Of a stretch of DNA of 64,000 nt, positions 1 through 63,912 are shown one piece after another. Within the stretch, counting starts at the first letter, position 1, and every line of letters begins with the position of its first letter. The position numbers were made by a program, and so were the translations under genes. The DNA is from Eledone cirrhosa (lineage: Eukaryota), in the NCBI GenBank assembly GCA_964016885.1, contig OZ024740.1:394444001-394508000 (forward strand), given 5' to 3'. Under the pieces are notes generated by a model. That model was not told the DNA's origin. It searched no databases and was given only the letters and a program-made list of their open reading frames with translations.

Positions 1-3000
1 ATTACTGATCCACACATATATTATTACTGATCCACACATATATTATTACTGATCCATACATATATTATTACTGATCCATACATATATTATTACTGAGCCA
101 CACATATTATTACTGATTCATACATATATTATTACTGATCCATACATATATTATTACTGATCGACACATATATTATTACTGATCCAAACATATATTATTT
201 CTGATGAAGACATATATTATTACTGATCCACACATATATTATTACTGATCCATACATATATTATTACTGATCCACATATATATTATTACTGATTCATACA
301 TATATTATTACTGATCCATACATATATTATTACTGATCCATACATATATTATTACTGATCCACCATATATTATTACTGATCCACACATATATTATTACTG
401 ATCCCTACAAATATTATTGCTGATCCACACATATATTATTACTGATCCATACTTATATTATTAGTGATCCACACATATATTATTACTGATCCACACATAT
501 ATTATTTCTGATCCACACTTATATTATTACTGATCCATACATATATTATTACTGATCCATAGATATATTATTACTGATCCACACGTATATTATTACTGAT
601 ACACACATATTATTACTGATCCACACATATATTATTACTGATCCACACATATATTATTACTGATCCCTACATATATTATTACTGATCCATACATATATTA
701 TTACTGATCCATATATATTTTATTACTGTTCCACACATATTATTACTGATCTGCACATATATTATTACTGATCCATACATATATTATTACTGATCGACAC
801 ATATATTATTACTGATCCACACATATATTATTATTGATCCATACATATATTATTACTGATTCATACATATATTATTACTGATCCACACATATATTATTAC
901 TGATCCACACATATATTATTACAGATTCATACATTTATTATTACTGATCCATATATATTTTATTACTGTTCCACACATATATTATTACTGATCCAAACAT
1001 AATTATTACTGATCCACACTTATATTATTACTGATCCATACATATATTATTACTGATCCATAGATATATTATTACTGATCCACACGTATATTATTACTGA
1101 TCCACACATATTATTACTGATCCACACATATATTATTACTGATCCACACATATATTATTACTAATCCCTACATATATTATTACTGATCCATACATATATT
1201 ATTACTGATCCCTACAAATATTATTGCTGATCCACACATATATTATTACTGATCCATACTTATATTATTAGTGATCCACACATATATTATTACTGATCCA
1301 CACATGTATTATTACTGATCCACACTTATATTATTACTGATCCATACATATATTATTACTGATCCATAGATATATTATTACTGATCCACACGTATATTAT
1401 TACTGATCCACACATATTATTACTGATCCACACATATATTATTACTGATCCACACATATATTATTACTGATCCCTACATATATTATTACTGATCCATACA
1501 TATATTATTACTGATCCATATATATTTTATTACAGTTCCACATATATATTATTACTGATCTGCACATATATTATTACTGATCCATACATATCCTATTACT
1601 GATCGACACATATATTATTACTGATCCACACATATATTATTACTGATCCACACATATATTATTACTGATCCACACATATATTATTACTGATCCACACATA
1701 TATTATTACTGATCCATACGTATATTATTACTGATCCATACATATATTATTACTGATCCACACATATATTATTATTGATCCATACATATATTATTACTGA
1801 TTCATACATATATTATTACTGATCTGCACATATATTATTACTGATCCACACATATATTATTACTGATCCACACATATATTATTACTGATCCACACATATA
1901 TTATTACAGATTCATACATATATTATTACTGATCCATACATATATTATTACTGAGCCACACATATATTATTACTGATTCATACATATATTATTACTGATC
2001 CATACATATATTATTACTGATCGACACATATATTATTACTGATCCAAACATATATTATTACTGATCCATACATATATTATTACTGATCCATACATATATT
2101 ATTACTGATCCACATATATATTATTACTGATTCATACATATATTATTACTGATCCATACATATATTATTACTGATCCATACATATATTATTACTGATCCA
2201 CCATATATTATTACTGATCCACACATATATTTTTACTGATCCCTACAAATATTATTGCTGATCCACACATATATTATTACTGATCCATACTTATATTATT
2301 AGTGATCCACACATATATTATTACTGATCCACACATATATTATTACTGATCCACACTTATATTATTACTGATCCATACATATATTATTACTGATCCATAG
2401 ATATATTATTACTGATCCACACGTATATTATTACTGATCCACACATATTATTACTGATCCACACATATATTATTACTGATCCACACATATATTATTACTG
2501 ATCCCTACATATATTATTACTGATCCATACATATATTATTACTGATCCATATATATTTTATTACTGTTCCACATATATATTATTACTGATCTGCACATAT
2601 ATTATTACTGATCCATACATATACTATTACTGATCGACACATATATTATTACTGATCCACACATATATTATTATTGATCCATACATATATTATTACTGAT
2701 CCACACGTATATTATTACTGATCCACACATATTATTACTGATCCACACATATATTATTACTGATCCACACATATTATTACTGATCCCTACATATATTATT
2801 ACTGATCCATACATATATTATTACTGATCCATATATATTTTATTACTGTTCCACATATATATTATTACTGATCTGCACATATATTATTACTGATCCATAC
2901 ATATACTATTACTGATCGACACATATATTATTACTGATCCACACATATATTATTATTGATCCACACATATATTATTACTGATCCAAACATATATTATTAC

Positions 3001-6000
3001 TGATCCACACATATATTATTACTGATCCACACATATATTATTACTGATCCACACATATATTATTACTGATCCCTACAAATATTATTACTGATCCACACAT
3101 ATATTATTACTGATCCATACATATATTATTACTGATCCATACATATATTATTACTGATCCATACGTATATTATTACTGATCCATACATATATTATTACTG
3201 ATCCATACATTTATTATTACTGATCCATACATATATTATTACTGATCCACACATATATTATTACTGATCCACACATATATTATTACTGATCCACACATAT
3301 ATTATTACTGATCCACACATATATTATTTCTGATCCATACATATATTATTACTGATCCATACATATATTATTACTGATCCATACATATATTATTACTGAT
3401 CCACACATATATTATTACTGATCCATACATGTATTATTACTGATCCACACTTATATTATTACTGATCAATACATATATTATTACTGATCCACACATATAT
3501 TATTACTGATCCAGAAATATATTATTACTGATCCATACATATATTATTACTGATCCACACATATATTATTACTGATCCATACATATATTATTACTAAACC
3601 ACACATATATTATTACTGATCCACACATATATTATTACTGATCCACACATATATTATTACTGATCCACACATATTATTACTGATCCATATATATTTTATT
3701 ACTGATCCATACATATATTATTACTGATCCACACATATATTATTACTGATCCACACATATATTATTACTGATCCCTACATATATTATTACTGATCCCTAC
3801 ATATATTATTACTGATCCATACATATATTATTACTGATCCAGATATATATTATTACTGATCCATACATATATTATTACTGATCCACACATATATTATTAC
3901 TGATTCACACATATATTATTTCTGTTCCATACATATATTATTACTGATCCACACATATATTATTACTGATCCATACATATATTATTACTGATCCACACAT
4001 ATATTATTACTGATCCATGCATATATTATTACTGATCCACACATATATTATTATTTATCCACACATATTATTACTGATCCATATATATTTTATTACTGAT
4101 CCATACATATATTATTACTGATCCATACATATATTATTACTGATCCACACATATATTATAACTGATCCATGCATATATTATTACTGATCCACACATATAT
4201 TATTACATATCCGCACATATATTATTACTAATCCATATATATTTTATTACTGATCCATACATATATTATTACTGATCCACACATATATTATTACTTATCC
4301 ACACATACATTATTACTGATCCACACATATATTATTACTTATCCACACATATATTATTACTGATCCATACATATATTATTACTGATCCACACATATATTA
4401 TTACTGATCCATACATATATTATTACTGATCCACACTTATATTATTACTGATCCAGACATATATTATTACTAATCCATACATATATTATTACTGATCCAC
4501 ACATATATTATTAATAATCCACACATATTGTTACTGATCCATACATTATTACTGATCCATACATATATTATTACGGATCCATACATATATTATTACTAAA
4601 CCATAAATATATTATTACTGATCCATACATATATTATTACTGATCCATACATATATTATTACTGATCCACACATATATTGTTACTGATCCATACATATAT
4701 TATTACTGGTCCACACATATATTATTAGTGATCCATGCATATATTATTACTGATCCACACATATATTATTACTTATCCACACATATATTATTACTGATCC
4801 ATATATATTTTATTACTGATCCATACATATATTATTACTGATCCATACATATATTATTACTGATCCACACATATATTATTACTAATCCATGCATATATTA
4901 TTACTGATCCACACATATGTTATTACTTATCCACACATATTATTACTGATCCATATATAATTTATTACTAAACCACACACATTATTACTGATCCATATAT
5001 ATTTTATTACTAATCCACACACATATTATTACTGATCCACACATATTTTATTACTGATCCATACATATATTATTACTGATCCACACATATATTATTACTT
5101 ATCCACACATATATTATTACTGATCCACACATATATTATTACTTATCCACACATATATTATTACTAATCCATACATATATTATTACTGATCCATACATAT
5201 ATTATTACTGATCCACACATATATTATTACTTATCCACACATATATTATTACTGATCCATACATATATTATTACTGATCCCTACATATATCATTACTGAT
5301 CCATACATATATTATTACTGATCCATACATATATTATTACTGATCCACACATATATTATTAATAATCCACACATATTATTACTGATCCATACATTATTAC
5401 TGATCCATACATATATTATTACGGATCCATACATATATTATTACTAAACCATAAATATATTATTACTGATCCATACATATATTATTACTGATCCATACAT
5501 ATATTATTACTGATCCACACATATATTGTTACTGATCCATACATATGTTATTACTGATCCACACATATATTATTAGTGATCCATGCATATATTATTACTG
5601 ATCCACACATATATTATTACTTATCCACACATATATTACTACTGATCCATATATATTTTATTACTGATCCATACATATATTATTACTGATCCATACATAT
5701 ATTATTACTGATCCACACATATATTATTACTAATCCATGCATATATTATTACTGATCCACACATATATTATTACTTATCCACACATATTATTACTGATCC
5801 ATATATATCTTATTACTAATCCACACACATTATTACTGATCCATATATATTTTATTAATAATCCACACACATATTATTACTGATCCACACATATTTTATT
5901 ACTGATCCATACATATATTATTACTGATCCACACATATATTATTACTTATCCACACATATATTATTACTGATCCACACATATATTATTACTGATCCATAC

Positions 6001-9000
6001 ATATATTATTATTGATCCACACATATATTATTACTGATCCACACATATATTATTACTGATCCATACATATATTATTCCTGATCCATACATATATTATTAC
6101 TGATCCATACATATATTATTACTGATCCACCCATATATTATTACTGATCCACACATATATTATTACTTATCCACACATATATTATTACTGATCCACACAT
6201 ATATTATTACTTATCCACACATATATTATTACTAATCCATACATATATTATTACTGATCCATACATATATTATTACTGATCCACACATATATTATTACTT
6301 ATCCACACATATATTATTACTGATCCATACATATATTATTACTGATCCATACATATATCATTACTGATCCATACATATATTATTACTGATCCATACATAT
6401 ATTATTACTGATCCCTACAAATATTATTGCTGATCCACACATATATTATTACTGATCCAAACTTATATTATTAGTGATCCACACATATATTATTACTGAT
6501 CCACACATATATTATTACTGATCCACACTTATATTATTACTGATCCATACATATATTATTACTGATCCATAGATATATTATTACTGATCCACACGTATAT
6601 TATTACTGATCCACACATATTATTACTGATCCACACATATATTATTACTGATCCACACATATATTATTACTGATCCCTACATATATTATTACTGATCCAT
6701 ACATATATTATTACTGATCCATATATATTTTATTACTGTTCCACATATATATTATTACTGATCTGCACATATATTATTACTGATCCATACATATACTATT
6801 ACTGATCGACACATATATTATTACTGATCCACACATATATTATTACTGATCCACACATATATTATTACTGATCCACACATATATTATTACTGATCCACAC
6901 ATATATTATTACTGATCCATACATATAGTATTACTGATCCATACATATATTATTACTGATCCACACATATATTATTATTGATCCATACATATATTATTAC
7001 TGATTCATACATATATTATTACTGATCTGCACATATATTATTACTGATCCACACATATATTATTACTGATCCACACATATATTATTACTGATCCACACAT
7101 ATATTATTACAGATTCATACATATATTATTACTGATCCATACATATATTATTACTGAGCCACACATATATTATTACTGATTCATACATATATTATTACTG
7201 ATCCATACATATATTATTACTGATCGACACATATATTATTACTGATCCAAACATATATTATTACTGATCCATACATATATTATTACTGATCCATACATAT
7301 ATTATTACTGATCCACATATATATTATTACTGATTCATACATATATTATTACTGATCCATACATATATTATTACTGATCCATAAATATATTATTACTGAT
7401 CCACCATATATTATTACTGATCCACACATATATTTTTACTGATCCCTACAAATATTATTGCTGATCCACACATATATTATTACTGATCCATACTTATATT
7501 ATTAGTGATCCACACATATATTATTACTGATCCACACATATATTATTACTGATCCACACTTATATTATTACTGATCCATACATATATTATTACTGATCCA
7601 TAGATATATTATTACTGATCCACACGTATATTATTACTGATCCACACATATTATTACTGATCCACACATATATTATTACTGATCCACACATATATTATTA
7701 CTGATCCCTACATATATTATTACTGATCCATACATATATTATTACTGATCCATATATATTTTATTACTGTTCCACATATATATTATTACTGATCTGCACA
7801 TATATTATTACTAATCCATACATATACTATTACTGATCGACACATATATTATTACTGATCCACACATATATTATTATTGATCCATACATATATTATTACT
7901 GATCCACACGTATATTATTACTGATCCACACATATTATTACTGATCCACACATATATTATTACTGATCCACACATATATTATTACTGATCCCTACATATA
8001 TTATTACTGATCCATACATATATTATTACTGATCCATATATATTTTATTACTGTTCCACATATATATTATTACTGATCTGCACATATATTATTACTGATC
8101 CATACATATACTATTACTGATCGACACATATATTATTACTGATCCACACATATATTATTATTGATCCACACATATATTATTACTGATCCAAACATATATT
8201 ATTACTGATCCACACATATATTATTACTGATCCACACATATATTATTACTGATCCACACATATATTATTACTGATCCCTACAAATATTATTACTGATCCA
8301 CACATATATTATTACTGATCCATACATATATTATTACTGATCCATACATATATTATTACTGATCCATACGTATATTATTACTGATCCATACATATATTAT
8401 TACTGATCCATACATTTATTATTACTGATCCATACATATATTATTACTGATCCACACATATATTATTACTGATCCACACATATATTATTACTGATCCACA
8501 CATATATTATTACTGATCCACACATATATTATTTCTGATCCATACATATATTATTACTGATCCATACATATATTATTACTGATCCATACATATATTATTA
8601 CTGATCCATACATATATTATTACTGATCCATACATGTATTATTACTGATCCACACTTATATTATTACTGATCAATACATATATTATTACTGATCCACACA
8701 TATATTATTACTGATCCAGACATATATTATTACTGATCCATACATATATTATTACTGATCCACACATATATTATTACTGATCCATACATATATTATTACT
8801 AATCCACACATATATTATTACTGATCCACACATATATTATTACTGATCCACACATATATTATTACTGATCCACACATATTATTACTGATCCATATATATT
8901 TTATTACTGATCCATACATATATTATTACTGATCCACACATATATTATTACTGATCCACACATATATTATTACTGATCCCTACATATATTATTACTGATC

Positions 9001-12000
9001 CCTACATATATTATTACTGATCCATACATATATTATTACTGATCCAGATATATATTATTACTGATCCATACATATATTATTAATGATCCACACATATATT
9101 ATTTCTGTTCCATACATATATTATTACTGATCCACACATATATTATTACTGATCCATACATATATTATTACTGATCCACACATATATTATTACTGATCCA
9201 TGCATATATTATTACTGATCCACACATATATTATTATTTATCCACACATATTATTACTGATCCATATATATTTTATTACTGATCCATACATATATTATTA
9301 CTGATCCATACATATATTATTACTGATCCACACATATATTATAACTGATCCATGCATATATTATTACTGATCCACACATATATTATTACATATCCGCACA
9401 TATATTATTACTAATCCATATATATTTTATTACTGATCCATACATATATTATTACTGATCCACACATATATTATTACTTATCCACACATACATTATTACT
9501 GATCCACACATATATTATTACTTATCCACACATATATTATTACTGATCCATACATATATTATTACTGATCCACACATATATTATTACTGATCCATACATA
9601 TATTATTACTGATCCACACTTATATTATTACTGATCCAGACATATATTATTACTAATCCATACATATATTATTACTGATCCACACATATATTATTAATAA
9701 TCCACACATATTGTTACTGATCCATACATTATTACTGATCCATACATATATTATTACGGATCCATACATATATTATTACTAAACCAAAAATATATTATTA
9801 CTGATCCATACATATATTATTACTGATCCATACATATATTATTACTGATCCACACATATATTGTTACTGATCCATACATATATTATTACTGGTCCACACA
9901 TATATTATTAGTGATCCATGCATATATTATTACTGATCCACACATATATTATTACTTATCCACACATATATTATTACTGATCCATATATATTTTATTACT
10001 TATCCATACATATATTATTACTGATCCATACATATATTATTACTGATCCACACATATATTATTACTAATCCATGCATATATTATTACTGATCCACACATA
10101 TGTTATTACTTATCCACACATATTATTACTGATCCATATATAATTTATTACTAAACCACACACATTATTACTGATCCATATATATTTTATTACTAATCCA
10201 CACACATATTATTACTGATCCACACATATTTTATTACTGATCCATACATATATTATTACTGATCCACACATATATTATTACTTATCCACACATATATTAT
10301 TACTGATCCACACATATATTATTACTTATCCACACATATATTATTACTAATCCATACATATATTATTACTGATCCATACATATATTATTACTGATCCACA
10401 CATATATTATTACTTATCCACACATATATTATTACTGATCCATACATATATTATTACTGATCCCTACATATATCATTACTGATCCATACATATATTATTA
10501 CTGATCCATACATATATTATTACTGATCCACACATATATTATTAATAATCCACACATATTATTACTGATCCATACATTATTACTGATCCACACATATATT
10601 ATTACTGATCCATACATATATTATTACTGATCCACACATATATTATTAATAATCCACACATATTATTACTGATCCATACATTATTACTGATCCATACATA
10701 TATTATTACGGATCCATACATATATTATTACTAAACCATAAATATATTATTACTGATCCATACATATATTATTACTGATCCATACATATATTATTACTGA
10801 TCCACACATATATTGTTACTGATCCATACATATGTTATTACTGATCCACACATATATTATTAGTGATCCATGCATATATTATTACTGATCCACACATATA
10901 TTATTACTTATCCACACATATATTATTACTGATCCATATATATTTTATTACTGATCCATACATATATTATTACTGATCCATACATATATTATTACTGATC
11001 CACACATATATTATTACTAATCCATGCATATATTATTACTGATCCACACATATATTATTACTTATCCACACATATTATTACTGATCCATATATATCTTAT
11101 TACTAATCCACACACATTATTACTGATCCATATATATTTTATTACTAATCCACACACATATTATTACTGATCCACACATATTTTATTACTGATCCATACA
11201 TATATTATTACTGATCCACACATATATTATTACTTATCCACACATATATTATTACTGATCCTCACATATATTATTACTGATCCATACATATATTATTATT
11301 GATCCACACATATATTATTACTGATCCACACATATATTATTACTGATCCATACATATGTTATTCCTGATCCATACATATATTATTACTGATCCATACATA
11401 TATTATTACTGATCCACCCATATATTATTACTGATCCACACATATATTATTACTTATCCACACATATATTATTACTGATCCACACATATATTATTACTTA
11501 TCCACACATATATTATTACTAATCCATACATATATTATTACTGATCCATACATATATTATTACTGATCCACACATATATTATTACTTATCCACACATATA
11601 TTATTACTGATCCATACATATATTATTACTAATCCATACATATATCATTACTGATCCATACATATATTATTACTGATCCATACATATATTATTACTGATC
11701 TGCACATATATTATTACTGATCCATACATATACTATTACTGATCGACACATATATTATTACTGATCCACACATATATTATTATTGATCCATACATATATT
11801 ATTACTGATCCACACGTATATTATTACTGATCCACACATATTATTACTGATCCACACATATATTATTACTGATCCACACATATATTATTACTGATCCCTA
11901 CATATATTATTACTGATCCATACATATATTATTACTGATCCATATATATTTTATTACTGTTCCACATATATATTATTACTGATCTGCACATATATTATTA

Positions 12001-15000
12001 CTGATCCATACATATACTATTACTGATCGACACATATATTATTACTGATCCACACATATATTATTATTGATCCACACATATATTATTACTGATCCAAACA
12101 TATATTATTACTGATCCACACATATATTATTACTGATCCACACATATATTATTACTGATCCACACATATATTATTACTGATCCCTACAAATATTATTACT
12201 GATCCACACATATATTATTACTGATCCATACATATATTATTACTGATCCATACATATATTATTACTGATCCATACATATATCATTACTGATCCATATATA
12301 TTTTATTACTGTTCCACATATATATTATTACTGATCTGCACATATATTATTACTGATCCATACATATACTATTACTGATCGACACATATATTATTACTGA
12401 TCCACACATATATTATTATTGATCCATACATATATTATTACTGATCCACACGTATATTATTACTGATCCACACATATTATTACTGATCCACACATATATT
12501 ATTACTGATCCACACATATAATATTACTGATCCCTACATATATTATTACTGATCCATACATATATTATTACTGATCCATATATATTTTATTACTGTTCCA
12601 CATATATATTATTACTGATCTGCACATATATTATTACTGATCCATACATATACTATTACTGATCGACACATATATTATTACTGATCCACACATATATTAT
12701 TATTGATCCACACATATATTATTACTGATCCAAACATATATTATTACTGATCCACACATATATTATTACTGATCCACACATATATTATTACTGATCCACA
12801 CATATATTATTACTGATCCCTACAAATATTATTACTGATCCACACATATATTATTACTGATCCATACATATATTATTACTGATCCATACATATATTATTA
12901 CTGATCCATACGTATATTATTACTGATCCATACATATATTATTACTGATCCATACATTTATTATTGCTGATCCATACATATATTATTACTGATCCACACA
13001 TATATTATTACTGATCCACACATATATTATTACTGATCCACACATATATTATTACTGATCCACACATATATTATTTCTGATCCATACATATATTATTACT
13101 GATCCATACATATATTATTACTGATCCATACATATATTATTACTGATCCACACATATATTATTACTGATCCATACATGTATTATTACTGATCCACACTTA
13201 TATTATTACTGATCAATACATATATTATTACTGATCCACACATATATTATTACTGATCCAGACATATATTATTACTGATCCATACATATATTATTACTGA
13301 TCCACACATATATTATTACTGATCCATACATATATTATTACTAATCCACACATATATTATTACTGATCCACACATATATTATTACTGATCCACACATATA
13401 TTATTACTGATCCACACATATTATTACTGATCCATATATATTTTATTACTGATCCATACATATATTATTACTGATCCACACATATATTATTACTGATCCA
13501 CACATATATTATTACTGATCCATACATATATTATTACTGATCCCTACATATATTATTACTGATCCATACATATATTATTACTGATCCAGATATATATTAT
13601 TACTGATCCATACATATATTATTACTGATCCACACATATATTATTACTGATTCACACATATATTATTTCTGTTCCATACATATATTATTACTGATCCACA
13701 CATATATTATTACTGATCCATACATATATTATTACTGATCCACACATATATTATTACTGATCCATGCATATATTATTACTGATCCACACATATATTATTA
13801 TTTATCCACACATATTATTACTGATCCATATATATTTTATTACTGATCCATACATATATTATTACTGATCCATACATATATTATTACTGATCCACACATA
13901 TATTATAACTGATCCATGCATATATTATTACTGATCCACACATATATTATTACATATCCGCACATATATTATTACTAATCCATATATATTTTATTACTGA
14001 TCCATACATATATTATTACTGATCCACACATATATTATTACTTATCCACACATACATTATTACTGATCCACACATATATTATTACTTATCCACACATATA
14101 TTATTACTGATCCATACATATATTATTACTGATCCACACATATATTATTACTGATCCATACATATATTATTACTGATCCACACTTATCTTATTACTGATC
14201 CAGACATATATTATTACTAATCCATACATATATTATTACTGATCCACACATATGTTATTACTTATCCACACATATTATTACTGATCCATATATAATTTAT
14301 TACTAATCCACACACATTATTACTGATCCATATATATTTTATTACTAATCCACACACATATTATTACTGATCCACACATATTTTATTACTGATCCATACA
14401 TATATTATTACTGATCCACACATATATTATTACTTATCCACACATATATTATTACTGATCCACACATATATTATTACTTATCCACACATATATTATTACT
14501 AATCCATACATATATTATTACTGATCCATACATATATTATTACTGATCCACACATATATTATTACTTATCCACACATATATTATTACTGATCCATACATA
14601 TATTATTACTGATCCCTACATATATCATTACTGATCCATACATATATTATTACTGATCCATACATATATTATTACTGATCCACACATATATTATTAATAA
14701 TCCACACATATTATTACTGATCCATACATTATTACTGATCCATACATATATTATTACGGATCCATACATATATTATTACTAAACCATAAATATATTATTA
14801 CTGATCCATACATATATTATTACTGATCCATACATATATTATTACTGATCCACACATATATTGTTACTGATCCATACATATGTTATTACTGATCCACACA
14901 TATATTATTAGTGATCCATGCATATATTATTACTGATCCACACATATATTATTACTTATCCACACATATATTATTACTGATCCATATATATTTTATTACT

Positions 15001-24000: not shown

Positions 24001-27000
24001 CATATATTATTACTGATCCTTACATATATTATTACTGATCCATACATATATTATTACTGCTCCACACATATATTATTACTGATCCACACATATATTATTA
24101 CTGATCCATGCATATATTATTACTGATCCACACATATATTATTACTTATCCACACATATTATTACTGATCCATATATATTTTATTACTGATCCATACATA
24201 TATTATTACTGATCCATACATATATTATTACTGATCCACACATATATTATTACTTATCCGCACATATATTATTACTAATCCATATATATTTTATTACTGA
24301 TCCATACATATATTATTACTGATCCACACAAAAATTATTACTTATCCACACATATATTATTAATGATCCACACATATATTATTACTTATCCACACATATA
24401 TTATTACTGATGCATACATATATTATTACTGATCCAGATATATATTATTACTGATCCATACATATATTATTACTGATCCACACATATATTATTACTGATC
24501 CACACATATATTATTACTGATCCCTACATATATTATTACAGATCCATACATATATTATTACTGATCCATACATATATTATTACTGATCCACACATATATT
24601 ATTACTGATCCCTACATATATTATTACTGATCCATACATATATTATTACTGATCCATACATATATTATTACTGATCCATATATATTTTATTACTGTTCCA
24701 CACATATATTATTACTGATCTGCACATATATTATTACTGATCCATACATATATTATTACTGATCGACACATATATTATTACTGATCCACACATATATTAT
24801 TATTGATCCATACATATATTATTACTGATTCATACATATATTATTACTGATCCACAAACATATTATTACTGATCCACACATATATTATTACAGATTCATA
24901 CATTTATTATTACTGATCCAAACATATATTATTACTGATCCACACATATATTATTACTGATCCACACATATTATTACTGATCCACACATATATTATTACT
25001 GATCCATACATTATTACTGATCCATACATATATTATTACTAATCCATACATATATTATTACTGATCCATACATATATTATTACTGATCCATACATATATT
25101 ATTACTGATCCACACATATATTGTTACTGATCCATACATATATTATTACTGATCCACACATATATTATTAGTGATCCATGCATATATTATTACTGATCCA
25201 CACATATATTATTACTTATCCACACATATATTATTACTGATCTCTACATATATTATTACTGATCCATACATATATTATTACTGATCCATACATATATTAT
25301 TATTGATCCACACATATATTATTACTGATCCACACATATATTATTACTGATCCATACATATATTATTCCTGATCCATACATATATTATTACTGATCCATA
25401 CATATATTATTACTGATCCATACATATATTATTACTGATCCACACATATATTATTACTGATCCACACATATATTATTACTGATCCATACATATATTATTA
25501 CTGATCTCTACATATATTATTACTGATCCATACATATATTATTACTGATCCATACATATATTATTATTGATCCACACATATATTATTACTGATCCACACA
25601 TATATTATTACTGATCCATACATATATTATTCCTGATCCATACATATATTATTACTGATCCATACATATATTATTACTGATCCACACATATATTATTACT
25701 GATCCACACATATATTATTACTTATCCACACATATATTATTACTGATCCACACATATATTATTACTTAGCCACACATATATTATTACTAATCCATACATA
25801 TATTATTACTGATCCACACATATATTATTACTTATCCACACATATATTATTACTGATCCATACATATATTATTCCTGATCCATACATATATTATTACTGA
25901 TCCATACATATATTATTACTGATCCATACACATATTATTACTGATCCACACATATATTATTACTGATCCACACATATATTATTACTGATCCATACATATA
26001 TTATTACTGATCTCTACATATATTATTACTGATCCATACATATATTATTACTGATCCATACATATATTATTATTGATCCACACATATATTATTACTGATC
26101 CACACATATATTATTACTGATCCATACATATATTATTCCTGATCCATACATATATTATTACTGATCCATACATATATTATTACTGATCCACACATATATT
26201 ATTACTGATCCACACATATATTATTACTTATCCACACATATATTATTACTGATCCACACATATATTATTACTTATCCACACATATATTATTACTAATCCA
26301 TACATATATTATTACTGATCCACACATATATTATTACTTATCCACACATATATTATTACTGATCCATACATATATTATTACTGATCGCTACATATATCAT
26401 TACTGATCCATACATATATTATTACTGATCCATACATATATTATTACAGATCCACACATATATCATTACTGATCCATACATATATTATTACCGATCCATA
26501 CAAATATTATTACTGATCCACACATATATTATTACTGATCCAAACATATATTATTACTGATCCATACATATATTATTACTGATCCACACATATATTATTA
26601 CTGATCCATACATATACTATTACTGATCCACACATATATTATTACTGATCCGCACATATATTATTACTGATCCATACATTTATTATTACTGATCCACACA
26701 TATATTATTACTGATCCACACATATATTATTACTGATCCATACATATATTATTACTGATCCATACATATATTATTACTGATCCATACATATATTATTACT
26801 AATCCACACATATATTATTACTGATCCATACATATATTATTACTGATCCACACATATATTATTACTGATCCACACATATATTATTACTGATCCACACATA
26901 TATTATTACTGATCCACACATATATTATTACTGATACATACATATATTATTACTGGTCCACACATATATTATTACTGATCCATACATATATTATTACTGA

Positions 27001-30000
27001 TCCACACATATATTAGTACTGATTCATACATATATTATTACTGATCCACACATATATTATTACTGATTCCCACATATATTATTACTGATCCATACATATA
27101 TTATTACTGATCCCTACATATATTATTACTGATCCATACATATATTATTACTGATCCAGATATATATTATTACTGATCCATACATATATTATTACTGATC
27201 CACACATATATTATTACTGATTCACACATATATTATTACTGTTCCATACATATATTATTACTGATCCACAAATATATTATTACTGATCCACACATATATT
27301 ATTACTGATCCATACATTTATTATTACTGATCCACACATATATTATTACTGCTCCACACATATATTATTACTGATCCATACATATATTATTACTGATCCA
27401 CACATATATTATTACTGATCCATGCATATATTATTACTGATCCACACATATATTATTACTGATCCACACATATTATTATTGATCCATATATATTTTATTA
27501 CTGATCCATACATATATTATTACTGATCCATACATATATTATTACTGATCCACACATATATCATTACTGATCCATACATATATTATTACCGATCCATACA
27601 AATATTATTACTGATCCACACATATATTATTACTGATCCAAACATATATTATTACTGATCCATACATATATTATTACTGATCCACACATATATTATTACT
27701 GATCCATACATATACTATTACTGATCCACACATATATTATTACTGATCCGCACATATATTATTACTGATCCATACATTTATTATTACTGATCCACACATA
27801 TATTATTACTGATCCACACATATATTATTACTGATCCATACATATATTATTACTGATCCATACATATATTATTACTGATCCATACATATATTATTACTAA
27901 TCCACACATATATTATTACTGATCCATACATATATTATTACTGATCCACACATATATTATTACTGATCCACACATATATTATTACTGATCCACACATATA
28001 TTATTACTGATCCACACATATATTATTACTGATACATACATATATTATTACTGGTCCACACATATATTATTACTGATCCATACATATATTATTACTGATC
28101 CACACATATATTAGTACTGATTCATACATATATTATTACTGATCCACACATATATTATTACTGATTCCCACATATATTATTACTGATCCATACATATATT
28201 ATTACTGATCCCTACATATATTATTACTGATCCATACATATATTATTACTGATCCAGATATATATTATTACTGATCCATACATATATTATTACTGATCCA
28301 CACATATATTATTACTGATTCACACATATATTATTACTGTTCCATACATATATTATTACTGATCCACAAATATATTATTACTGATCCACACATATATTAT
28401 TACTGATCCATACATTTATTATTACTGATCCACACATATATTATTACTGCTCCACACATATATTATTACTGATCCATACATATATTATTACTGATCCACA
28501 CATATATTATTACTGATCCATGCATATATTATTACTGATCCACACATATATTATTACTGATCCACACATATTATTATTGATCCATATATATTTTATTACT
28601 GATCCATACATATATTATTACTGATCCATACATATATTATTACTGATCCACACATATATTATTACTTATCCGCACATATATTATTACTAATCCATATATA
28701 TTTTATTACTGATCCATACATATATTATTACTGATCCACACATATATTATTACTTATCCACACATATATTATTACTGATTCACACATATATTATTACTTA
28801 TCCACACATATATTATTACTCATCCATACATATATTATTACTGATCCACACATATATTATTACTGATCCATACATATATTATTACTGATCCACACTTATA
28901 TTATTACTGATCCAGACATATATTATTACTAATCCATACATATATTATTACTGATCCACACATATATTATTAATAATCCACACATATGTTATTACTGATC
29001 CATACATTATTACTGATCCATACATATATTATTACTAATCCATACATATATTATGACTGATCCATACATATATTATTACTGATCCATACATATATTATTA
29101 CTGATCCACACATATATTGTTACTGATCCATACATATATTATTACTGATACACACATATATTATTACTGATCCATACATATATTATTACTGATCCACACA
29201 TATATTATTACTGATCCACACATATATTATTACTGATCCATACATATATTATTACTGATCTCTACATATATTATTACTGATCCATACATATATTATTACT
29301 GATCCATACATATATTATTATTGATCCACACATATATTATTACTGATCCACACATATATTATTACTGATCCATACATATATTATTCCTGATCCATACATA
29401 TATTATTACTGATCCATACATATATTATTACTGATCCACACATATATTATTACTGATCCACACATATATTATTACTTATCCACACATATATTATTACTGA
29501 TCCACACATATATTATTACTTATCCACACATATATTATTACTAATCCATACATATATTATTATTGATCCACACATATATTATTACTTATCCACACATATA
29601 TTATTACTGATCCATACATATATTATTACTGATCCCTACATATATCATTACTGATCCATACATATATTATTACTGATCCATACATATATTATTACCGATC
29701 CACACATATATTATTACTGATCCATACATATATTATTACCGATCCATACATATATTATTACTGATCCACACATATATTATTACTGATCCAAACATATATT
29801 ATTACTGATCCATACATATATTATTACTGATCCACACATATATTATTACTGATCCATACATATATTATTACTGATCCACACATATATTACTACTGATCCG
29901 CACATATATTATTACTGATCCATACATTTAATATTACTGATCCACACATATATTATTACTTATCCACACATATATTATTACTGATCCATACATATATTAT

Positions 30001-33000
30001 TACTGATCCACACATATATTATTACTGATCCACACATATATTATTACTGATCCATACATATATTATTACTGATCCACACATATATTATTACTGATCCAAA
30101 CATATATTATTACTGATCCATACATATATTATTACTGATCCACACATATATTATTACTGATCCACACATATATTATTACTGATCCACACATATATTATTA
30201 CTGATCCACACATATATTATTACTGATCCAAACATATATTAATACTGATCCATACATATATTGTTACTGATCCACACATATTATTACTGATCCACACATA
30301 TAATATTCCTCATCCACACATATATTATTACTGATCCATACATATATTATTACTAATCCATACATATATTATTACTGATCCACACATATATTATTACTGA
30401 TCCATACATATATTATTACTGATCCATACATATATTATTACTGATCCACACATATATTATTACTGATCCACACATATATTATTACTGATCCATACATATA
30501 TTATTACTGAACCATACATATATTATTACTGATCTCTACATATATTATTACTGATCCATACATATATTATTAATGATCCATACATATATCATTACTGATC
30601 CACACATATATTATTACTGATCCATACATATATTATTACCGATCCACACATATATTATTACTGATCCATACATATATTATTACCAATCCATACATATATT
30701 ATTACTGATACATACATATATTATTACTGATCCACACATATATTATTACTGATCCGCACATATATTATTACTGATCCATACATTTATTATTACTGATCCA
30801 CACATATATTATTACTGATCCACACATATATTATTACTGATCCATACATATATTATTACTGATCCACACATATATTATTACTGATCCACACATATATTAT
30901 TACTGATCCATACATATATTATTACTGATCCACACATATATTATTACTGATCCAAACATATATTATTACTGATCCATACATATATTATTACTGATCCACA
31001 CATATATTATTACTGATCCACACATATATTATTACTGATCCACACATATATTATTACTGATCCACACATATATTATTACTGATCCATACATATATTATTA
31101 CTGATCCATACATATATTATTACTGATCCACACATATATTATTACAGATTCATACATATATTATTACTGATCCAAACATATATTATTACTGATCCATACA
31201 TATATTATTACTGATCCACACATATTATTACTGATCCACACATATAATATTCCTCATCCACACATATATTATTACTGATCCATACATATATTATTACTGA
31301 TCCATACATATATTATTACTGATCCACACATATATTATTACTGATCCATACATATATTATTACTGATCCATACATATATTATTACTGATCCACAAATATA
31401 TTATTACTAATCCACACATATATTATTACTGATCCATACATATATTATTACTGATCTCTAAATATATTATTACTGATCCATACATATATTATTACTGATC
31501 CATACATATATTATTACTGATCCACACATATATTATTACTGATCCATACATATATTATTACTGATCCATACATATATTATTACTGATCCACACATATATT
31601 ATTACTGATCCACACATATATTATTACTGATCCATACATATATTATTAATGATCCATACATATATTATTACTGATCCATACATATATTATTACTGATCCA
31701 TACATATATTATTACTGATCCATACATATATTATTACTGATCGACACATATATTATTACTGATCCATACATATATTATTACTGATCTCTACATATATTAT
31801 TACTGATCCATACATATATTATTACTGATCCATACATATATTATTACCGATCCATACATATATTATTACTGATCCACACATATATTATTACTGATCCAAA
31901 CGTATATTATTACTGATCCATACATATATTATTACTGATCCACACATATATTATTACTGATCCATACATATATTATTACTGATCCACACATATATTATTA
32001 CTGATCCGCACATATATTATTACTGATCCATACATTTATTATTACTGATCCACACATATATTATTACTGATCCACACATATATTATTACTGATCTATACA
32101 TATATTATTACTGATCCATACATATATTATTACTGATCCATACATATATTATTACTAATCCACACATATATTATTACTGATCCATACATATATTATTACT
32201 GATCCACACATATATTATTACTGATCCACACATTTATTATTACTGATCCACACATATATTATTACTGATCCACACATACATTATTACTGATCCATACATA
32301 TATTATTACTGGTCCACACATATATTATTACTGATCCACACATATATTAGTACTGATTCATACATATATTATTACTGATCCACACATATATTATTACTGA
32401 TTCACACATATATTATTACTGATCCATACATATATTATTACTGATCCCTACATATATTATTACTGATCCATACATATATTATTACTGATCCAGATATATA
32501 TTATTACTGATCCATACATATATTATTACTGATCCACACATATATTATTACTGATTCACACATATATTATTACTGTTCCATACATATATTATTACTGATC
32601 CACACATATATTATTACTGATCCACACATATATTATTACTGATCCATACATTTATTATTACTGATCCACACATATATTATTACTGCTCCACACATATATT
32701 ATTACTGATCCATACATATATTATTACTGATCCACACATATATTATTACTGATCCATGCATATATTATTACTGATCCACACATATATTATTACTTATCCA
32801 CACATATTATTACTGATCCATATATATTTTATTACTGATCCATACATATATTATTACTGATCCATACATATATTATTACTGATCGACACATATATTATTA
32901 CTGATCCATACATATATTATTACTGATCTCTACATATATTATTACTGATCCATACATATATTATTACTGATCCATACATATATTATTACCGATCCATACA

Positions 33001-36000
33001 TATATTATTACTGATCCACACATATATTATTACTGATCCAAACATATATTATTACTGATCCATACATATATTATTACTGATCCACACATATATTATTACT
33101 GATCCATACATATATTATTACTGATCCACACATATTATTACTGAGCGCACATATATTATTACTGATCCATACATTTATTATTACTGATCCACACATCTAT
33201 TATTACTGATCCACACATATATTATTACTGATCCATACATATATTATTACTGATCCATACATATATTATTACTGATCCATACATATATTATTACTAATCC
33301 ACACATATATTATTACTGATCCATACATATATTATTACTGATCCACACATATATTATTACTGATCCACACATATATTATTACTGATCCACACATATATTA
33401 TTACTGATCCACACATATATTATTACTGATCCATACATATATTATTAATGATCCATACATATATTATTACTGATCCATACATATATTATTACTGATCCAT
33501 ACATATATTATTACTGATCCATACATATATTATTACTGATCGACACATATATTATTACTGATCCATACATATATTATTACTGATCTCTACATATATTATT
33601 ACTGATCCATACATATATTATTACTGATCCATACATATATTATTACCGATCCATACATATATTATTACTGATCCACACATATATTATTACTGATCCAAAC
33701 ATATATTATTACTGATCCATACATATATTATTACTGATCCACACATATATTATTACTGATCCATACATATATTATTACTGATCCACACATATATTATTAC
33801 TGATCCGCACATATATTATTACTGATCCATACATTTATTATTACTGATCCACACATATATTATTACTGATCCACACATATATTATTACTGATCTATACAT
33901 ATATTATTACTGATCCATACATATATTATTACTGATCCATACATATGTTATTACTAATCCACACATATATTATTACTGATCCATACATATATTATTACTG
34001 ATCCACACATATATTATTACTGATCCACACATTTATTATTACTGATCCACACATATATTATTACTGATCCACACATACATTATTACTGATCCATACATAT
34101 ATTATTACTGGTCCACACATATATTATTACTGATCCATACATATATTATTACTGATCCACACATATATTAGTACTGATTCATACATATATTATTACTGAT
34201 CCACACATATATTATTACTGATTCACACATATATTATTACTGATCCATACATATATTATTACTGATCCCTACATATATTATTACTGATCCATACATATAT
34301 TATTACTGATCCAGGTATATATTATTACTGATCCATACATATATTATTACTGATCCACACATATATTATTACTGATTCACACATATATTATTACTGTTCC
34401 ATACATATATTATTACTGATCCACACATATATTATTACTGATCCACACATATATTATTACTGATCCATACATTTATTATTACTGATCCACACATATATTA
34501 TTACTGCTCCACACATATATTATTACTGATCCATACATATATTATTACTGATCCACACATATATTATTACTGATCCATGCATATATTATTACTGATCCAC
34601 ACATATATTATTACTTATCCACACATATTATTACTGATCCATATATATTTTATTACTGATCCATACATATATTATTACTGATCCATACATATATTATTAC
34701 TGATCGACACATATATTATTACTGATCCATACATATATTATTACTGATCTCTACATATATTATTACTGATCCATACATATATTATTACTGATCCATACAT
34801 ATATTATTACCGATCCATACATATATTATTACTGATCCACACATATATTATTACTGATCCAAACATATATTATTACTGATCCATACATATATTATTACTG
34901 ATCCACACATATATTATTACTGATCCATACATATATTATTACTGATCCACACATATATTATTACTGAGCGCACATATATTATTACTGATCCATACATTTA
35001 TTATTACTGATCCACACATCTATTATTACTGATCCACACATATATTATTACTGATCCATACATATATTATTACTGGTCCACACATATATTATTACTGATC
35101 CATACATATATTATTACTGATCCATACATATATTAGTACTGATTCATACATATATTATTACTGATCCACACATATATTATTACTGATTCACACATATATT
35201 ATTACTGATCCATACATATATTATTACTGATCCCTACATATATTATTACTGATCCATACATATATTATTACTGATCCAGATATATATTATTACTGATCCA
35301 TACATATATTATTACTGATCCACACATATATTATTACTGATTCACACATATATTATTACTGTTCCATACATATATTATTACTGATCCACACATATATTAT
35401 TACTGATCCACACATATATTATTACTGATCCATACATTTATTATTACTGATCCACACATATATTATTACTGCTCCACACATATATTATTACTGATCCATA
35501 CATATATTATTACTGATCCACACATATATTATTACTGATCCATGCATATATTATTACTGATCCACACATATATTATTACTTATCCACACATATTATTACT
35601 GATCCATATATATTTTATTACTGATCCATACATATATTATTACAGATCCATACATATATTATTACTGATCCACACATATATTATTACTAATCCATATATA
35701 TTTTATTACTGATCCATACATATATTGTTACTGATCCACACATATATTATTACTTATCCACACAAATATTATTACTGATCCACACATATATTATTACTTA
35801 TCCACACATATATTATTACTCATCCATACATATATTATTACTGATCCACACATATATTATTACTGATCCATACATATATTATTACTGATCCACACTTATA
35901 TTATTACTGATCCAGACATATATTATTACTAATCCATACATATATTATTACTGATCCACACATATATTATTAATAATCCACACATATATTATTACTGATC

Positions 36001-39000
36001 CATACATTATTACTGATCCATACATATATTATTACTAATCCATACATATATTATTACTGATCCATACATATATTATTGCTGATCCATACATATATTATTA
36101 CTGATCCACACATATATTGTTACTGATCCATACATATATTATTACTGATCCACACATATATTATTAGTGATCCATGCATATATTATTACTGATCCACACA
36201 TATATTATTACTTATCCACACATATATTATTACTAATCCATACATATATTATTACTGATCCACACATATATTATTACTTATCCCCACATATATTATTACT
36301 TATCCCCACATATATTATTACTGATCCATACATATATTATTACTGATCCCTACATATATCATTACTGATCCATACATATATTATTACTGATCCATACATA
36401 TATTATTACCGATCCACACATATATTATTACTGATCCATACATTTATTATTACTGATCCACACATATATTATTACTGATCCACACATATATTATTACTGA
36501 TCCATACATATATTATTACTGATCCACACATATATTATTACTGATCCGCACATATATTATTACTGATCCATACATTTATTATTACTGATCCACACATATA
36601 TTATTACTGATCCATACATTTATTATTACTGATCCACACATATATTATTACTGATCCACACATATATTATTACTGATCCATACATATATTATTACTGATC
36701 CACACATATATTATTATTGATCCACACATATATTATTACTTATCCCCACATATATTATTACTGATCCATACATATATTATTACTGATCCCTACATATATC
36801 ATTTCTGATCCATACATATATTATTACTGATCCATACATATATTATTACCGATCCACACATATATTATTACTGATCCATACATATATTATTACCGATTCA
36901 TACATATATTATTACTGATCCACACATATATTATTACTGATCCAAACATATATTATTACTGATCCATACATATATTATTACTGATCCACACATATATTAT
37001 TACTGATCCATACATATATTATTACTGATCCACACATATATTATTACTGATCCGCACATATATTATTACTGATCCATACATTTATTATTACTGATCCACA
37101 CATATATTATTACTGATCCACACATATATTATTACTGATCCATACATATATTATTACTGATCCACACATATATTATTACTGATCCACACATATATTATTA
37201 CTGATCCATACATATATTATTACTGATCCACACATATATTATTACTGATCCCCACATATATTATTACTGATCCATACATATATTATTACTGATCCCTACA
37301 TATATCATTTCTGATCCATACATATATTATTACTGATCCATACATATATTATTACCGATCCACACATATATTATTACTGATCCATACATATATTATTACC
37401 GATTCATACATATATTATTACTGATCCACACATATATTATTACTGATCCAAACATATATTATTACTGATCCATACATATATTATTACTGATCCACACATA
37501 TATTATTACTGATCCATACATATATTATTACTGATCCACACATATATTATTACTGATCCGCACATATATTATTACTGATCCATACATTTATTATTACTGA
37601 TCCACACATATATTATTACTGATCCACACATATATTATTACTGATCCATACATATATTATTACTGATCCACACATATATTATTACTGATCCACACATATA
37701 TTATTACTGATCCATACATATATTATTACTGATCCACACATATATTATTACTGATCCAAACATATATTATTACTGATCCATACATATATTATTACTGATC
37801 CACACATATATTATTACTGATCCACACATATATTATTACTGATCCACACATATATTATTACTGATCCATACATATATTATTACTGATCCATACATATATT
37901 ATTACTGATCCACACATATATTATTACAGATTCATACATATATTATTACTGATCCAAACATATATTATTACTGATCCATACATATATTATTACTGATCCA
38001 CACATATTATTACTGATCCACACATATAATATTCCTCATCCACACATATATTATTACTGATCCATACATATATTATTACTGATCCATACATATATTATTA
38101 CTGATCCACACATATATTATTACTGATCCATACATATATTATTACTGATCCATACATATATTATTACTGATCCACACATATATTATTACTGATCCACACA
38201 TATATTATTACTGATCCATACATATATTATTACTGATCCATACATATATTATTACTGATATCTACATATATTATTACTGATCCATACATATATTATTAAT
38301 GATCCATACATATATCATTACTGATCCATACATATATTATTACTGATCCATACATATATTATTACCGATCCACACATATATTATTACTGATCCATACATA
38401 TATTATTACCGATCCATACATATATTATTACTGATCCATACATATATTATTACTGATCCACACATATATTATTACTGATCCGCACATATATTATTACTGA
38501 TCCATACATTTATTATTACTGATCCACACATATATTATTACTGATCCACACATATATTATTACTGATCCATACATATATTATTACTGATCCACACATATA
38601 TTATTACTGATCCACACATATATTATTACTGATCCATACATATATTATTACTGATCCACACATATATTATTACTGATCCAAACATATATTATTACTGATC
38701 CAAACATATATTATTACTGATCCATACATATATTATTACTGATCCACACATATTATTACTGATCCACACATATAATATTCCTCATCCACACATATATTAT
38801 TACTGATACATACATATATTATTGCTGATCCATACATATATTATTACTGATCCACACATATATTATTACTGATCCATACATATATTATTACTGATCCATA
38901 CATATATTATTACTGATCCACACATATATTATTACTGATCCACACATATATTATTACTGATCCATACATATATTATTACTGATCCATACATATATTATTA

Positions 39001-40058
39001 ATGATCCATACATATATCATTACTGATCCATACATATATTATTACTAATCCATACATATATTATTACCGATCCACACATATATTATTACTGATCCATACA
39101 TATATTATTACCGATCCACACATATATTATTACAGATTCATACATATATTATTACTGATCCAAACATATATTATTACTGATCCATACATATATTATTACT
39201 GATCCACACATATTATTACTGATCCACACATATAATATTCCTCATCCGCACATATATTATTACTGATCCATACATATATTATTACTGATCCATACATATA
39301 TTATTACTGATCCACACATATATTATTACTGATCCATACATATATTATTACTGATCCATACATATATTATTACTGATCCACACATATATTATTACTGATC
39401 CACACATATATTATTACTGATCCATACATATATTATTACTGATTTCTACATATATTATTACTGATCCATACATATATTATTACTGATCCATACATATATT
39501 ATTACTGATCCACACATATATTATTACTGATCCATACATATATTATTACTGATCCATACATATATTATTACTGATCCACACATATATTATTACTGATCCA
39601 CACATATATTATTACTGATCCATACATATATTATTAATGATCCATACATATATTATTACTGATCCATACATATATTATTACTGATCCATACATATATTAT
39701 TACTGATCCATACATATATTATTACTGATCGACACATATATTATTACTGATCCATACATATATTATTACTGATCTCTACATATATTATTACTGATCCATA
39801 CATATATTATTACTGATCCATACATATATTATTATTGATCCACACATATATTATTACTGATCCACACATATATTATTCCTGATCCATACATATATTATTA
39901 CTGATCCACACATATATTATTACTGATCCATACATATATTATTCCTGATCCATACATATATTATTACTGATCCATACATATATTATTACTGATCCACACA
40001 TATATTATTACTGATCCACACATATATTATTACTGATCCACACATATATTATTACTGA
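1..40058. repeat. 22-bp tandem satellite array, consensus ATTACTGATCCA(C/T)ACATATATT, about 1,800 monomers, truncated by the window start
   Basis: Period 22 is directly visible (1-22, 23-44, 45-66). Uninterrupted head-to-tail array with point variants and occasional shorter monomers. Ends abruptly at ...ATTACTGA|AGATAGG (40058). Confidence 0.99.
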
Positions 40059-40291
40059 AGATAGGAACAGTGTAAACAACTACATCGAATTTCTCGTTCG
40101 TTCAGAACTGGTTTAAGTGATCCACGAAGAATAGGTGATTGATGGTTCCTATCCTGCCTACACTCTTCGCAATACAAGAGACAAATGTATGAAGGTAAGG
40201 ACAAACAAAAGGGTACAGACTATCTCATTAAAAGATACATCTCTTCCTCTCTTGATTTTTACTGCTTCCAAGGATTTTTCCCCTGATGCTA
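40037..40291 (-). pseudogene. Decayed R4/Dong-type non-LTR retrotransposon RT-core fragment whose 3' end is the first satellite monomer
   Basis: Minus strand gives SLEAVKIKRG..IF**DSL..LLFVL..LRRV*AG..TINHLFFVD..DVVVYTVPIFSNNICVD across frameshifts. This is colinear with SLGSVKIKRGIFQEDSLSPLLFVL..LRKVRAG..TINHLFFMDD..DVLVDTVRIFSSDICMQ of the element at about 62215-62481. DNA example: accatcaatcacctattcttcgtgga vs accatcaatcacctcttcttcatgga. Confidence 0.92.
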
Positions 40292-60289: not shown

Positions 60290-60290
<1 letters not shown>

Positions 60291-63898: not shown

Positions 63899-63912
63899 TA
63901 ATAACAATAATA

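What the first reader, a model, noticed from the sequence alone, without database searches (positions are those of the whole stretch)
1..40291. A 40-kb satellite apparently born from 22 nt of reverse-transcriptase coding sequence, with the founding junction preserved
Seen: the reverse-complemented monomer TCAGTAATAATATATGTATGGA matches TCAGCAGTGATATATGTATGCA (62460-62481, codons FSSDICMQ just downstream of the RT catalytic FMDD motif) at 18/22 positions. At the array edge a decayed RT copy runs gap-free and in frame into the first monomer: gatgtagttgtttacactgttcctatct|tcagtaataatatatgtgtgga (DVVVYTVPIFSNNICVD) vs gatgtgcttgttgacactgtccgtattt|tcagcagtgatatatgtatgca (DVLVDTVRIFSSDICMQ). Known: TE-derived satellites exist, usually from LTRs, UTRs or MITE/Helitron internal repeats. 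Inference: a short non-repetitive segment inside an R4/Dong RT core was amplified about 1,800-fold in place, and parent relic, junction and a near-intact relative are all in one window.
Basis: partly seen in the sequence, partly recalled or inferred. Interest (0 to 1): 0.92.

Follow-up and report, generated by a model that had tools for sequence, protein, structure and literature searches.

The report
Satellite born inside dead retrotransposon gene
A 50,000-base run of 2,271 copies of one 22-base unit sits exactly where that unit belongs in a dead jumping gene, whose sequence resumes without gap on both sides, so the repeat most likely grew on the spot from a single copy and probably has no function, which makes it an unusually clean record of how satellite DNA can start.

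Summary
Confirmed, and stronger than reported. The 22-bp array starts 9.7 kb left of the window and totals 49,766 bp, 2,271 monomers. Both edges map to the same position in 23 of 30 relatives, so the array occupies exactly one 22-nt slot of one dead Dong-like (R4 clade) LINE. The monomer matches the older subfamily's commonest letters at 20 of 22. All 2,126 genome-wide matches (up to 2 mismatches) lie in this array, so it is a single locus. The first duplication left no microhomology and the unit forms no hairpin. 69% of monomers lie in exact blocks of 10 or more found elsewhere in the array, so growth was likely by block duplication. No function is evident. Corrections: the young element at 60-64 kb is a later relative, not the parent, and the 18/22 match alone is modest evidence. 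Tandem repeats born inside transposons, including LINE ORF2, are known. This is a new member, notable for size, one locus, a known ancestral state and two intact junctions. No read spanning the array and no unexpanded allele was seen.

The parts
1..40058 (-). 22-bp tandem array, window part. Whole array is G000:C1:394434293-394484058 (49,766 bp, 2,271 monomers, RT sense on the minus strand) and begins 9.7 kb left of the window. Outside the window, in locus L061: the last monomer (G000:C1:394434293-394434314, full length, ancestral A18) and the downstream half of the same relic (G000:C1:394434158-394434292), which resumes the RT sequence at the base after the 22-nt slot
40037..40058 (-). First monomer in RT sense: full length, carries the two changes fixed in the array (T5, A9) and the derived G18
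40059..40291 (-). Upstream half of the parent LINE relic (RT motifs up to just past the decayed catalytic motif); 186 of 225 columns equal the old subfamily's commonest letter
40321..40492 (+). Fragment of a different R4-like LINE family (81-89% to its own relatives); an independent neighbour, not part of the parent
60290..63900 (+). Young Dong-like element between (AAT)18 and (TAA)19: RT, CCHC knuckle and restriction-like endonuclease motif, broken by a frameshift near 62520; later relative of the parent
62460..62481 (+). Single-copy equivalent of the monomer in the young element (18 of 22 identical)

Best explanation
The array fills exactly one 22-nt slot in the reverse-transcriptase sequence of one dead Dong-like LINE and occurs nowhere else in the assembly, so it most likely grew in place, probably without function, from a small tandem duplication followed by repeated block duplications. 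Shown: colinear parent sequence on both sides, single locus, no microhomology at the unit ends, no hairpin, nested duplicated blocks up to 3.7 kb. Inferred steps: (1) an old Dong-like copy inserted and decayed; (2) the slot gained two transitions; (3) a blunt 22-nt tandem duplication arose, most likely by repair of staggered nicks or a break; (4) once a few copies existed, misaligned recombination or repair copied ever larger blocks; an early A-to-G change at position 18 reached half the copies; (5) drift let this one seed run to 50 kb while other seeds in the family stayed at two or a few copies.
For: Both junctions map to one position in 23 of 30 relatives. Monomer equals the old subfamily's commonest letter at 20 of 22 columns; none of 200,000 shuffles exceeded 17. 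Single locus: 2,126 of 2,126 matches with up to 2 mismatches, 0 on the other strand, 0 in the reversed control. An ancestral-type head-to-tail junction was found in no other LINE copy: 21 of 22 hits lie in the array and the other has no LINE match. Order of events: T5 and A9 are in 2,201 and 2,177 of 2,271 monomers, including the first monomer, where they sit next to the flank; no monomer has both ancestral letters; the last monomer keeps ancestral A18 next to its flank. Block growth: 165 of 169 monomers identical at lag 169, 50 of 50 at lag 50, 107 of 116 at lag 238; 69% of monomers lie in exact blocks of 10 or more, 0% in 5 shuffles. Seeds are common: of 16 candidates checked in about 168 kb of family copies, 4 are clear and 2 probable two-copy duplications, and one 74-bp unit reached 7.6 copies. 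Divergence fits neutrality: monomers about 14.5% from the family, flanks 18.3% (arithmetic; Fisher p 0.39 for 20/22 against 312/382).
Against: No unexpanded or short allele was seen: RAD reads of three other samples cover the relic but stop about 30 bases short of the junction. No long read spanning the array was available. The first-duplication mechanism is inferred from absences only. Homogenisation could have fixed T5 and A9 after the first duplication. Why this seed ran away is not explained by any sequence feature found. The old relatives were chosen as best hits to the relic, so the family yardstick is not an unbiased sample.
Confidence: 0.85

Rival explanations
1. The first duplication was microhomology-driven: a 26-nt unit bounded by the 4-nt direct repeat that flanks the slot in the family, followed by a 4-nt deletion at the joint, gave the 22-mer. 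Later growth as in the best explanation.
For: In the relatives the slot lies exactly between two ATTT tetramers, and several copies have their own small indels at this site. Some two-copy duplications in the family show 3-10 nt of overlap.
Against: It needs two events. No 25- or 26-nt monomer and no trace of the longer joint occurs among 2,271 monomers. The relic's upstream tetramer differs from the downstream one at one base.
Confidence: 0.1
2. The duplication was made during retrotransposition (template slip or jump) or was carried by a parent element, so the seed is as old as the insertion.
For: Human data link TE-derived repeats to younger, active elements (PMC3389668). Homogenisation could have spread T5 and A9 later.
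Against: No other copy carries the head-to-tail joint in ancestral or derived form. Both derived letters are present in the flank-proximal first monomer. Monomers lie only about 5.4% from the A-type monomer against 18% for the flanks.
Confidence: 0.07
3. The array is kept or driven by selection, as a heterochromatin block, a nascent centromere or a drive element.
For: Its size and uninterrupted state are exceptional, and it lies in a transposon-rich region with no recognisable host gene among ORFs of 150 aa or more in the 194 kb held (judged by eye). SINE-derived satellites favour subtelomeric regions (PMC10702118).
Against: Divergence is compatible with neutrality. The two main variants show no regular alternation. 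The consensus unit has a stop in each 66-nt period on both strands (read from the sequence). The array lies 48 Mb from the nearer contig end and occurs on one chromosome only.
Confidence: 0.07
4. The origin is real but the assembled length or block structure is partly an assembly artefact.
For: One 50-monomer and some 22-25-monomer blocks are perfect copies. No spanning long read was available.
Against: Most blocks differ by a few monomers and are nested. There are 185 monomer types with regional distributions and no N. Summed contig depth on the monomers is 12,000-17,000 against 3.8 on the flank in run X1, the right order of magnitude though not a copy number.
Confidence: 0.05
5. A pre-existing AT-rich satellite inserted into the relic and resembles the RT slot by chance.
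For: 18/22 somewhere in a 3.6-kb element is reached by 2 of 300 shuffles.
Against: It would have to delete exactly those 22 bases, match them in phase at 20/22 and have no source array elsewhere.
Confidence: 0.01

Closest known systems
SINE-derived satellites of squamates (sSat; PMC10702118; abstract and sections 5 and 19 read)
   Same: Tandem arrays of an internal retroelement segment with parent sequence left at the ends; up to about 950-1,200 monomers; minor variants keep both termini; one lizard has a single very long locus.
   Different: Those come from non-coding SINEs, have 67-215 nt units and often many loci per genome, and usually keep one parent end. Here the unit is 22 nt of RT-coding LINE sequence, at one locus, with 2,271 copies and both ends.
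Human TE-derived minisatellites (PMC3389668; parts 1-3 of 4 read, first of 86 parts of its table seen)
   Same: In-place local duplication inside a TE copy; mostly single-locus; 94% have no flanking repeat or incomplete end unit to explain initiation; 601 come from L1.
   Different: Alu-derived ones average 2.3-2.4 copies and all 7,276 total 1.05 Mb; this one array is 49.8 kb. Their filter (GC at least 40%) would have excluded this 25%-GC unit.
Satellites related to LINE ORF2: PROsat, Pvc20, chicken HinfI (PMC9659126; part 1 of 8 and passages read)
   Same: Satellite sequence related to LINE coding sequence.
   Different: In the passages read the link is sequence similarity or a long fragment inside the monomer; the founding locus with both junctions is not described there.
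Mouse Ms6-hm and Hm-2 from MaLR (table rows in PMC9659126 and PMC6947457; details recalled)
   Same: Recalled as single-locus, kilobase-long arrays expanded inside a retroelement relic.
   Different: 4-5 nt units from an LTR; recalled, not checked here.
Dong / R4-clade non-LTR retrotransposons (PMC7998251, passages read)
   Same: RT plus restriction-like endonuclease in one ORF, inserted in (TAA)n repeats.
   Different: The parent here is a roughly 390-bp internal relic without its own ends; assignment rests on its relatives.

Membership tests
TE-derived tandem repeat amplified in place | Unit is homologous to a segment of the TE | tested here: met
   20 of 22 against column majorities of 29 old relatives, 18 of 22 against the young family
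TE-derived tandem repeat amplified in place | Flanks are the adjacent TE sequence, colinear with the unit | tested here: met
   Both sides, zero gap, 23 of 30 relatives
TE-derived tandem repeat amplified in place | Segment is single-copy in the TE family | tested here: met
   One copy in the relatives aligned; no other LINE copy with the joint
TE-derived tandem repeat amplified in place | Unexpanded ortholog or allele exists | tested here: inconclusive
   RAD reads of 3 other samples stop short of the junction; no other species label among 6 runs listed
Classical satellite DNA family | Long head-to-tail array with homogenised monomers | tested here: met
   49.8 kb, mean pairwise difference 8.3%
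Classical satellite DNA family | Dispersal to several loci or chromosomes | tested here: not met
   2,126 of 2,126 matches at one locus; better called a very large single-locus minisatellite or nascent satellite
Classical satellite DNA family | Heterochromatic or centromeric chromatin | not testable with these tools
   No chromatin data
Minisatellite born between 5-10 bp direct repeats | Flanking direct repeat in phase with the unit, or incomplete terminal unit | tested here: not met
   Both end monomers are complete; no base is shared across either junction
Dong / R4 clade (young element and relatives) | One ORF with RT, CCHC knuckle and C-terminal restriction-like endonuclease | tested here: met
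   RVT_1 E 2e-19; zf-RVT weak, below cut-off; CX2CX8HX4C and PD-D-A motifs read in the translation; unbroken 1,141-codon frame in a neighbour copy in L135; nearest solved structures are R2 (E 6e-24) ahead of L1 (E 1e-12)
Dong / R4 clade (young element and relatives) | Insertion in (TAA)n | tested here: met
   30 of 30 young copies end in TAA-type runs; 13 of 13 visible 5'-truncation junctions have TAA runs; many but not all old relatives do too
Dong / R4 clade (young element and relatives) | RT phylogeny with named R4/Dong references | not tested
   No named reference was fetched; the tree holds own-genome copies only
Dong / R4 clade (young element and relatives) | Diverged N-terminal Myb/SANT domain | tested here: inconclusive
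   No Pfam hit at E 0.1; the published detection used profile-profile search
Dong / R4 clade (the relic itself) | Belongs to the same lineage as the TAA-targeted copies | tested here: met
   Falls among the old copies in a 35-row clade (100/100) that includes the young family; its own ends are lost
5'-inverted (twin-primed) LINE insertion | Inverted and direct pieces come from the same element | tested here: not met
   The plus-strand piece at 40321-40492 belongs to a separate family

The most novel reading that the evidence does not exclude
A satellite caught at birth with a full record. An ordinary, non-repetitive, non-folding 22-mer of dead RT-coding DNA was duplicated bluntly, possibly at staggered nicks made by the still-active Dong endonuclease, and ran to 50 kb at one locus without dispersing. 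Short or single-copy alleles still segregate or survive in a sister species, and the array is acquiring heterochromatin. The whole path from one copy to 2,271 could then be read directly, including array ends that are less diverged than the middle, against the usual (recalled) expectation.
Probability: 0.2. Interest if true: 0.8.

Novelty: new member of a known kind. Interest (0 to 1): 0.55.

Why it matters
How satellites start is usually inferred from loose similarity, because the founding locus is overwritten or lost among daughter arrays. Here the ancestral single-copy state can be read from dozens of sibling LINE copies, both junctions are exact, every variant can be polarised and the array has not dispersed. 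That makes textbook models testable at one locus: whether seeds need microhomology or secondary structure (here apparently not), whether growth is stepwise or by blocks (blocks), whether edges are the most decayed part (here they are not), and how long a seed takes to reach 50 kb. It is not new in kind and shows no sign of function.

Tried and rejected
Twin-priming or 5'-inversion reading of the relic: the plus-strand piece resumes close to where the minus-strand piece ends, but it belongs to another family; rejected. Hairpin-driven slippage: six monomers fold worse than all 200 shuffles on both strands; rejected. Regular dimer or higher-order period from the A/G variants: same-state frequency 0.45-0.52 at lags 1-6; not found. 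Monomer 'frozen' earlier than the flanks: 20/22 against 312/382 is not significant. A possible second array on C2 (paired hits) is only a 162-bp two-copy duplication inside a large inverted segmental duplication. The one outside hit to the ancestral-type joint (L111) has no LINE match. RAD reads did not reach the junction and laid nothing on the monomers, so they say nothing on array length in other animals. Three look-ups of earlier findings returned nothing. Eight literature searches listed no report of this repeat or of a Dong-RT-derived array; the library lacks most subscription journals, and only 1 of 86 parts of the human table was seen. Protein homolog searches of the large collections and structure prediction were not run, as they do not bear on the array.
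Full report
Observation. The window opens inside a 22-bp tandem array that ends at 40058. Right of it, 40059-40291 on the minus strand is a decayed reverse-transcriptase sequence that aligns to the young LINE at 60290-63900 (174/262, E 5e-17) and runs without a gap into the first monomer. The 18/22 match is modest on its own: it is the single best of all rotations and strands in the young element, but 2 of 300 shuffled monomers do as well somewhere.

The other end. I fetched 100 kb left of the window. The array continues for 9.7 kb and its far edge passes straight into the next RT bases: 108 of 149 identical, no gaps, to 62460-62608 of the young element, beginning with the monomer itself. At protein level the pieces follow each other in order. 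The whole array is G000:C1:394434293-394484058, 49,766 bp, 2,271 monomers, 2,176 of them 22 nt long. I aligned each junction separately to 29 older relatives (30 loci were fetched from 42 listed; one is the relic itself) and to the young element. Both point to the same base in 23 of 30; four of the rest have their own indel there and three do not cover the site. The array therefore replaces exactly one 22-nt slot, with nothing lost or added at either side.

The parent. Against the commonest letter per column of the 29 older copies the monomer matches 20 of 22, and the flanks match 312 of 382. None of 200,000 shuffles exceeded 17 at the fixed site. In a tree of 41 rows (loci aligning over fewer than 140 bases were dropped) the relic falls among the old copies with the longest end branch (0.19); the young family is nested in the same clade, and the family of the plus-strand fragment at 40321-40492 is separate at 100/100 (bootstrap not fully settled). 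The young element is thus a later relative. The lineage behaves as Dong: RT (Pfam RVT_1), CCHC and endonuclease motifs in one frame, R2 as nearest solved structure, and TAA runs at 30 of 30 3' ends and 13 of 13 visible 5' truncations. PMC7998251 (passages) gives RT plus REL and (TAA)n targets as Dong features in insects, molluscs and cnidarians. No tree with named references was made. The genome looks octopod-like from its SINE and microsatellite make-up; that is recall, not tested.

One locus. Three patterns were counted genome-wide and in the 164 kb held around the array: 440 and 440, 1,234 and 1,234, and 2,126 and 2,126 with up to two mismatches, with no hit on the other strand or in the reversed controls. 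A joint with the family's ancestral letters gave 22 hits at one mismatch, 21 in the array and one with no LINE match. More diverged daughter arrays, or arrays missing from the assembly, are not excluded.

Order of events (inferred). Two transitions from the family state, at positions 5 and 9, are in 2,201 and 2,177 of 2,271 monomers, and no monomer has both ancestral letters. They are present in the first monomer, where they lie next to the flank and are hardest to overwrite, so they probably predate the first duplication. Position 18 is split 1,074 A to 1,123 G; A is ancestral and is kept in the last monomer, four bases from its flank. Monomers differ from the consensus at 0.70 further sites on average. 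By arithmetic they lie about 5.4% from the A-type monomer and 14.5% from the family, against 18.3% for the flanks. This fits neutral decay, with amplification in roughly the last third of the relic's life if rates are equal; homogenisation makes this a lower bound on the seed's age.

The seed. No base is shared across either junction and both end monomers are complete. The unit does not fold. The two classical initiation models (flanking direct repeats, incomplete end unit) are therefore not met, as for 94% of human TE-derived repeats (PMC3389668). A blunt duplication by repair of staggered nicks or a break is my preferred reading; it rests on absences and on general knowledge. In the family the slot sits between two ATTT tetramers, which allows a two-step rival (26-nt duplication, 4-nt deletion), but no longer unit survives. 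Seeds are not rare: in about 168 kb of LINE-coding sequence from 79 loci, 16 candidates were checked and 4 are clear, 2 probable, two-copy duplications of single-copy family sequence. One locus holds 7.6 copies of a 74-bp unit at the end of another LINE ORF. The rare step is the run-away.

Growth. The monomer string has nested repeats: 165 of 169 identical at lag 169 (3.7 kb, head to tail), 107 of 116 at lag 238, 81 of 86 at lag 446, 50 of 50 at lag 50. 69% of monomers lie in exact blocks of ten or more, none in five shuffles; 889 of 1,076 variant monomers have a twin in matching context; several variants are regional; the part left of the window has almost no private variants, suggesting recent duplication there. 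The 20 monomers at each end carry 7 and 5 differences, 12 against about 28 expected from the mean; monomers are not independent, so this is a hint only. The pattern fits unequal exchange or misaligned repair of kilobase blocks and does not fit one rolling-circle event or a fixed higher-order unit. Which recombination pathway acted cannot be told.

Reads. Six runs were listed, three holding the stretch (one sample, one study, possibly the assembled animal) and three RAD runs added by species label; four were laid. One contig covers 40029-40405 with no difference, so it includes one monomer and eight bases of the next; that is 30 letters on the array side, one short of the tool's bridging rule. 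Summed depth on the monomers is 12,000-17,000 against 3.8 on the flank, which is no copy number. RAD reads of three other samples cover about 40083-40370 at depth 2-6 with no listed difference in the relic, so the relic is shared, but they do not reach the junction.

Context and function. In 194 kb held around the array, ORFs of 150 aa or more look like transposons or simple repeats by eye; short exons are not excluded. Nothing points to a function, and I rate neutrality most likely.

Comparison. Tandem repeats from TEs are well known. PMC9659126 (part 1 of 8 and passages) finds repetitive and non-coding parts prevail but lists LINE ORF2 cases. PMC10702118 (abstract, sections 5 and 19) describes SINE-derived arrays of up to about 1,200 monomers, a minority with both parent ends. 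PMC3389668 (parts 1-3 of 4; first part of its table) lists 7,276 human cases, mostly two or three copies. PMC6947457 was seen as passages only. Eight searches listed no report of this repeat or of a Dong-RT-born array; subscription journals are mostly missing. It works like an in-place TE-derived minisatellite and meets that group's tested features. It fails the dispersal test of a classical satellite family.

Verdict. Observation confirmed, interpretation supported and strengthened by the second junction and single-locus status. New member of a known kind, exceptional in clarity and size. Interest 0.55.

Noticed in passing
L046:2101-2662: 74-bp unit x 7.6 (96% matches) at the C-terminal end of another R4-like LINE ORF; each unit is ORF sequence plus AT-rich filler and the ORF resumes after the array. 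Looks like an intermediate stage of the same process.
   Followed up: partly
L131:4943-5258 and L132:4934-5249 (G000:C2, about 384.66 and 384.95 Mb): 162-bp two-copy duplication inside an old Dong-like copy, itself within an inverted segmental duplication of about 10 kb or more at 98-99% identity, about 290 kb apart.
   Followed up: partly
window 49182-50417: A 320-bp segment is repeated inverted at 99.4% (49552-49871 and 50048-50367) with an 85-bp direct repeat (49437-49521 and 49963-50047), between (TA)n runs; a duplication-inversion structure.
   Followed up: no
L135 (about 22-25 kb right of the window's end): Neighbouring full-length copy of the young Dong-like family with an unbroken 1,141-codon frame; the family is 97-99% alike, so probably recently active.
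   Followed up: partly
window 40321-40492: Fragment of a second R4-like family in the opposite orientation, beginning at almost the protein position where the relic's far half ends; apparently coincidence.
   Followed up: yes
L036, L041, L043, L045, L058, L059 at the 22-nt slot: Six of 29 old copies have their own small deletions, duplications or AT slips within or beside the slot, so the site may be slip-prone; not compared with other sites.
   Followed up: no
window 40059-40291: The relic has the longest end branch (0.19) of all old copies in the tree; either the oldest copy or faster decay beside the array.
   Followed up: no
window 1-40058: Most monomer joints carry a GATC site, so restriction-based Hi-C or digests would cut this locus about every 22 bp; depth there may be biased.
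   Followed up: no
window 41073-41152, 42045-42124, 48715-48780, 56070-56145: Several copies of a short dispersed repeat, probably a SINE; similar pieces lie beyond the relic's far half.
   Followed up: no
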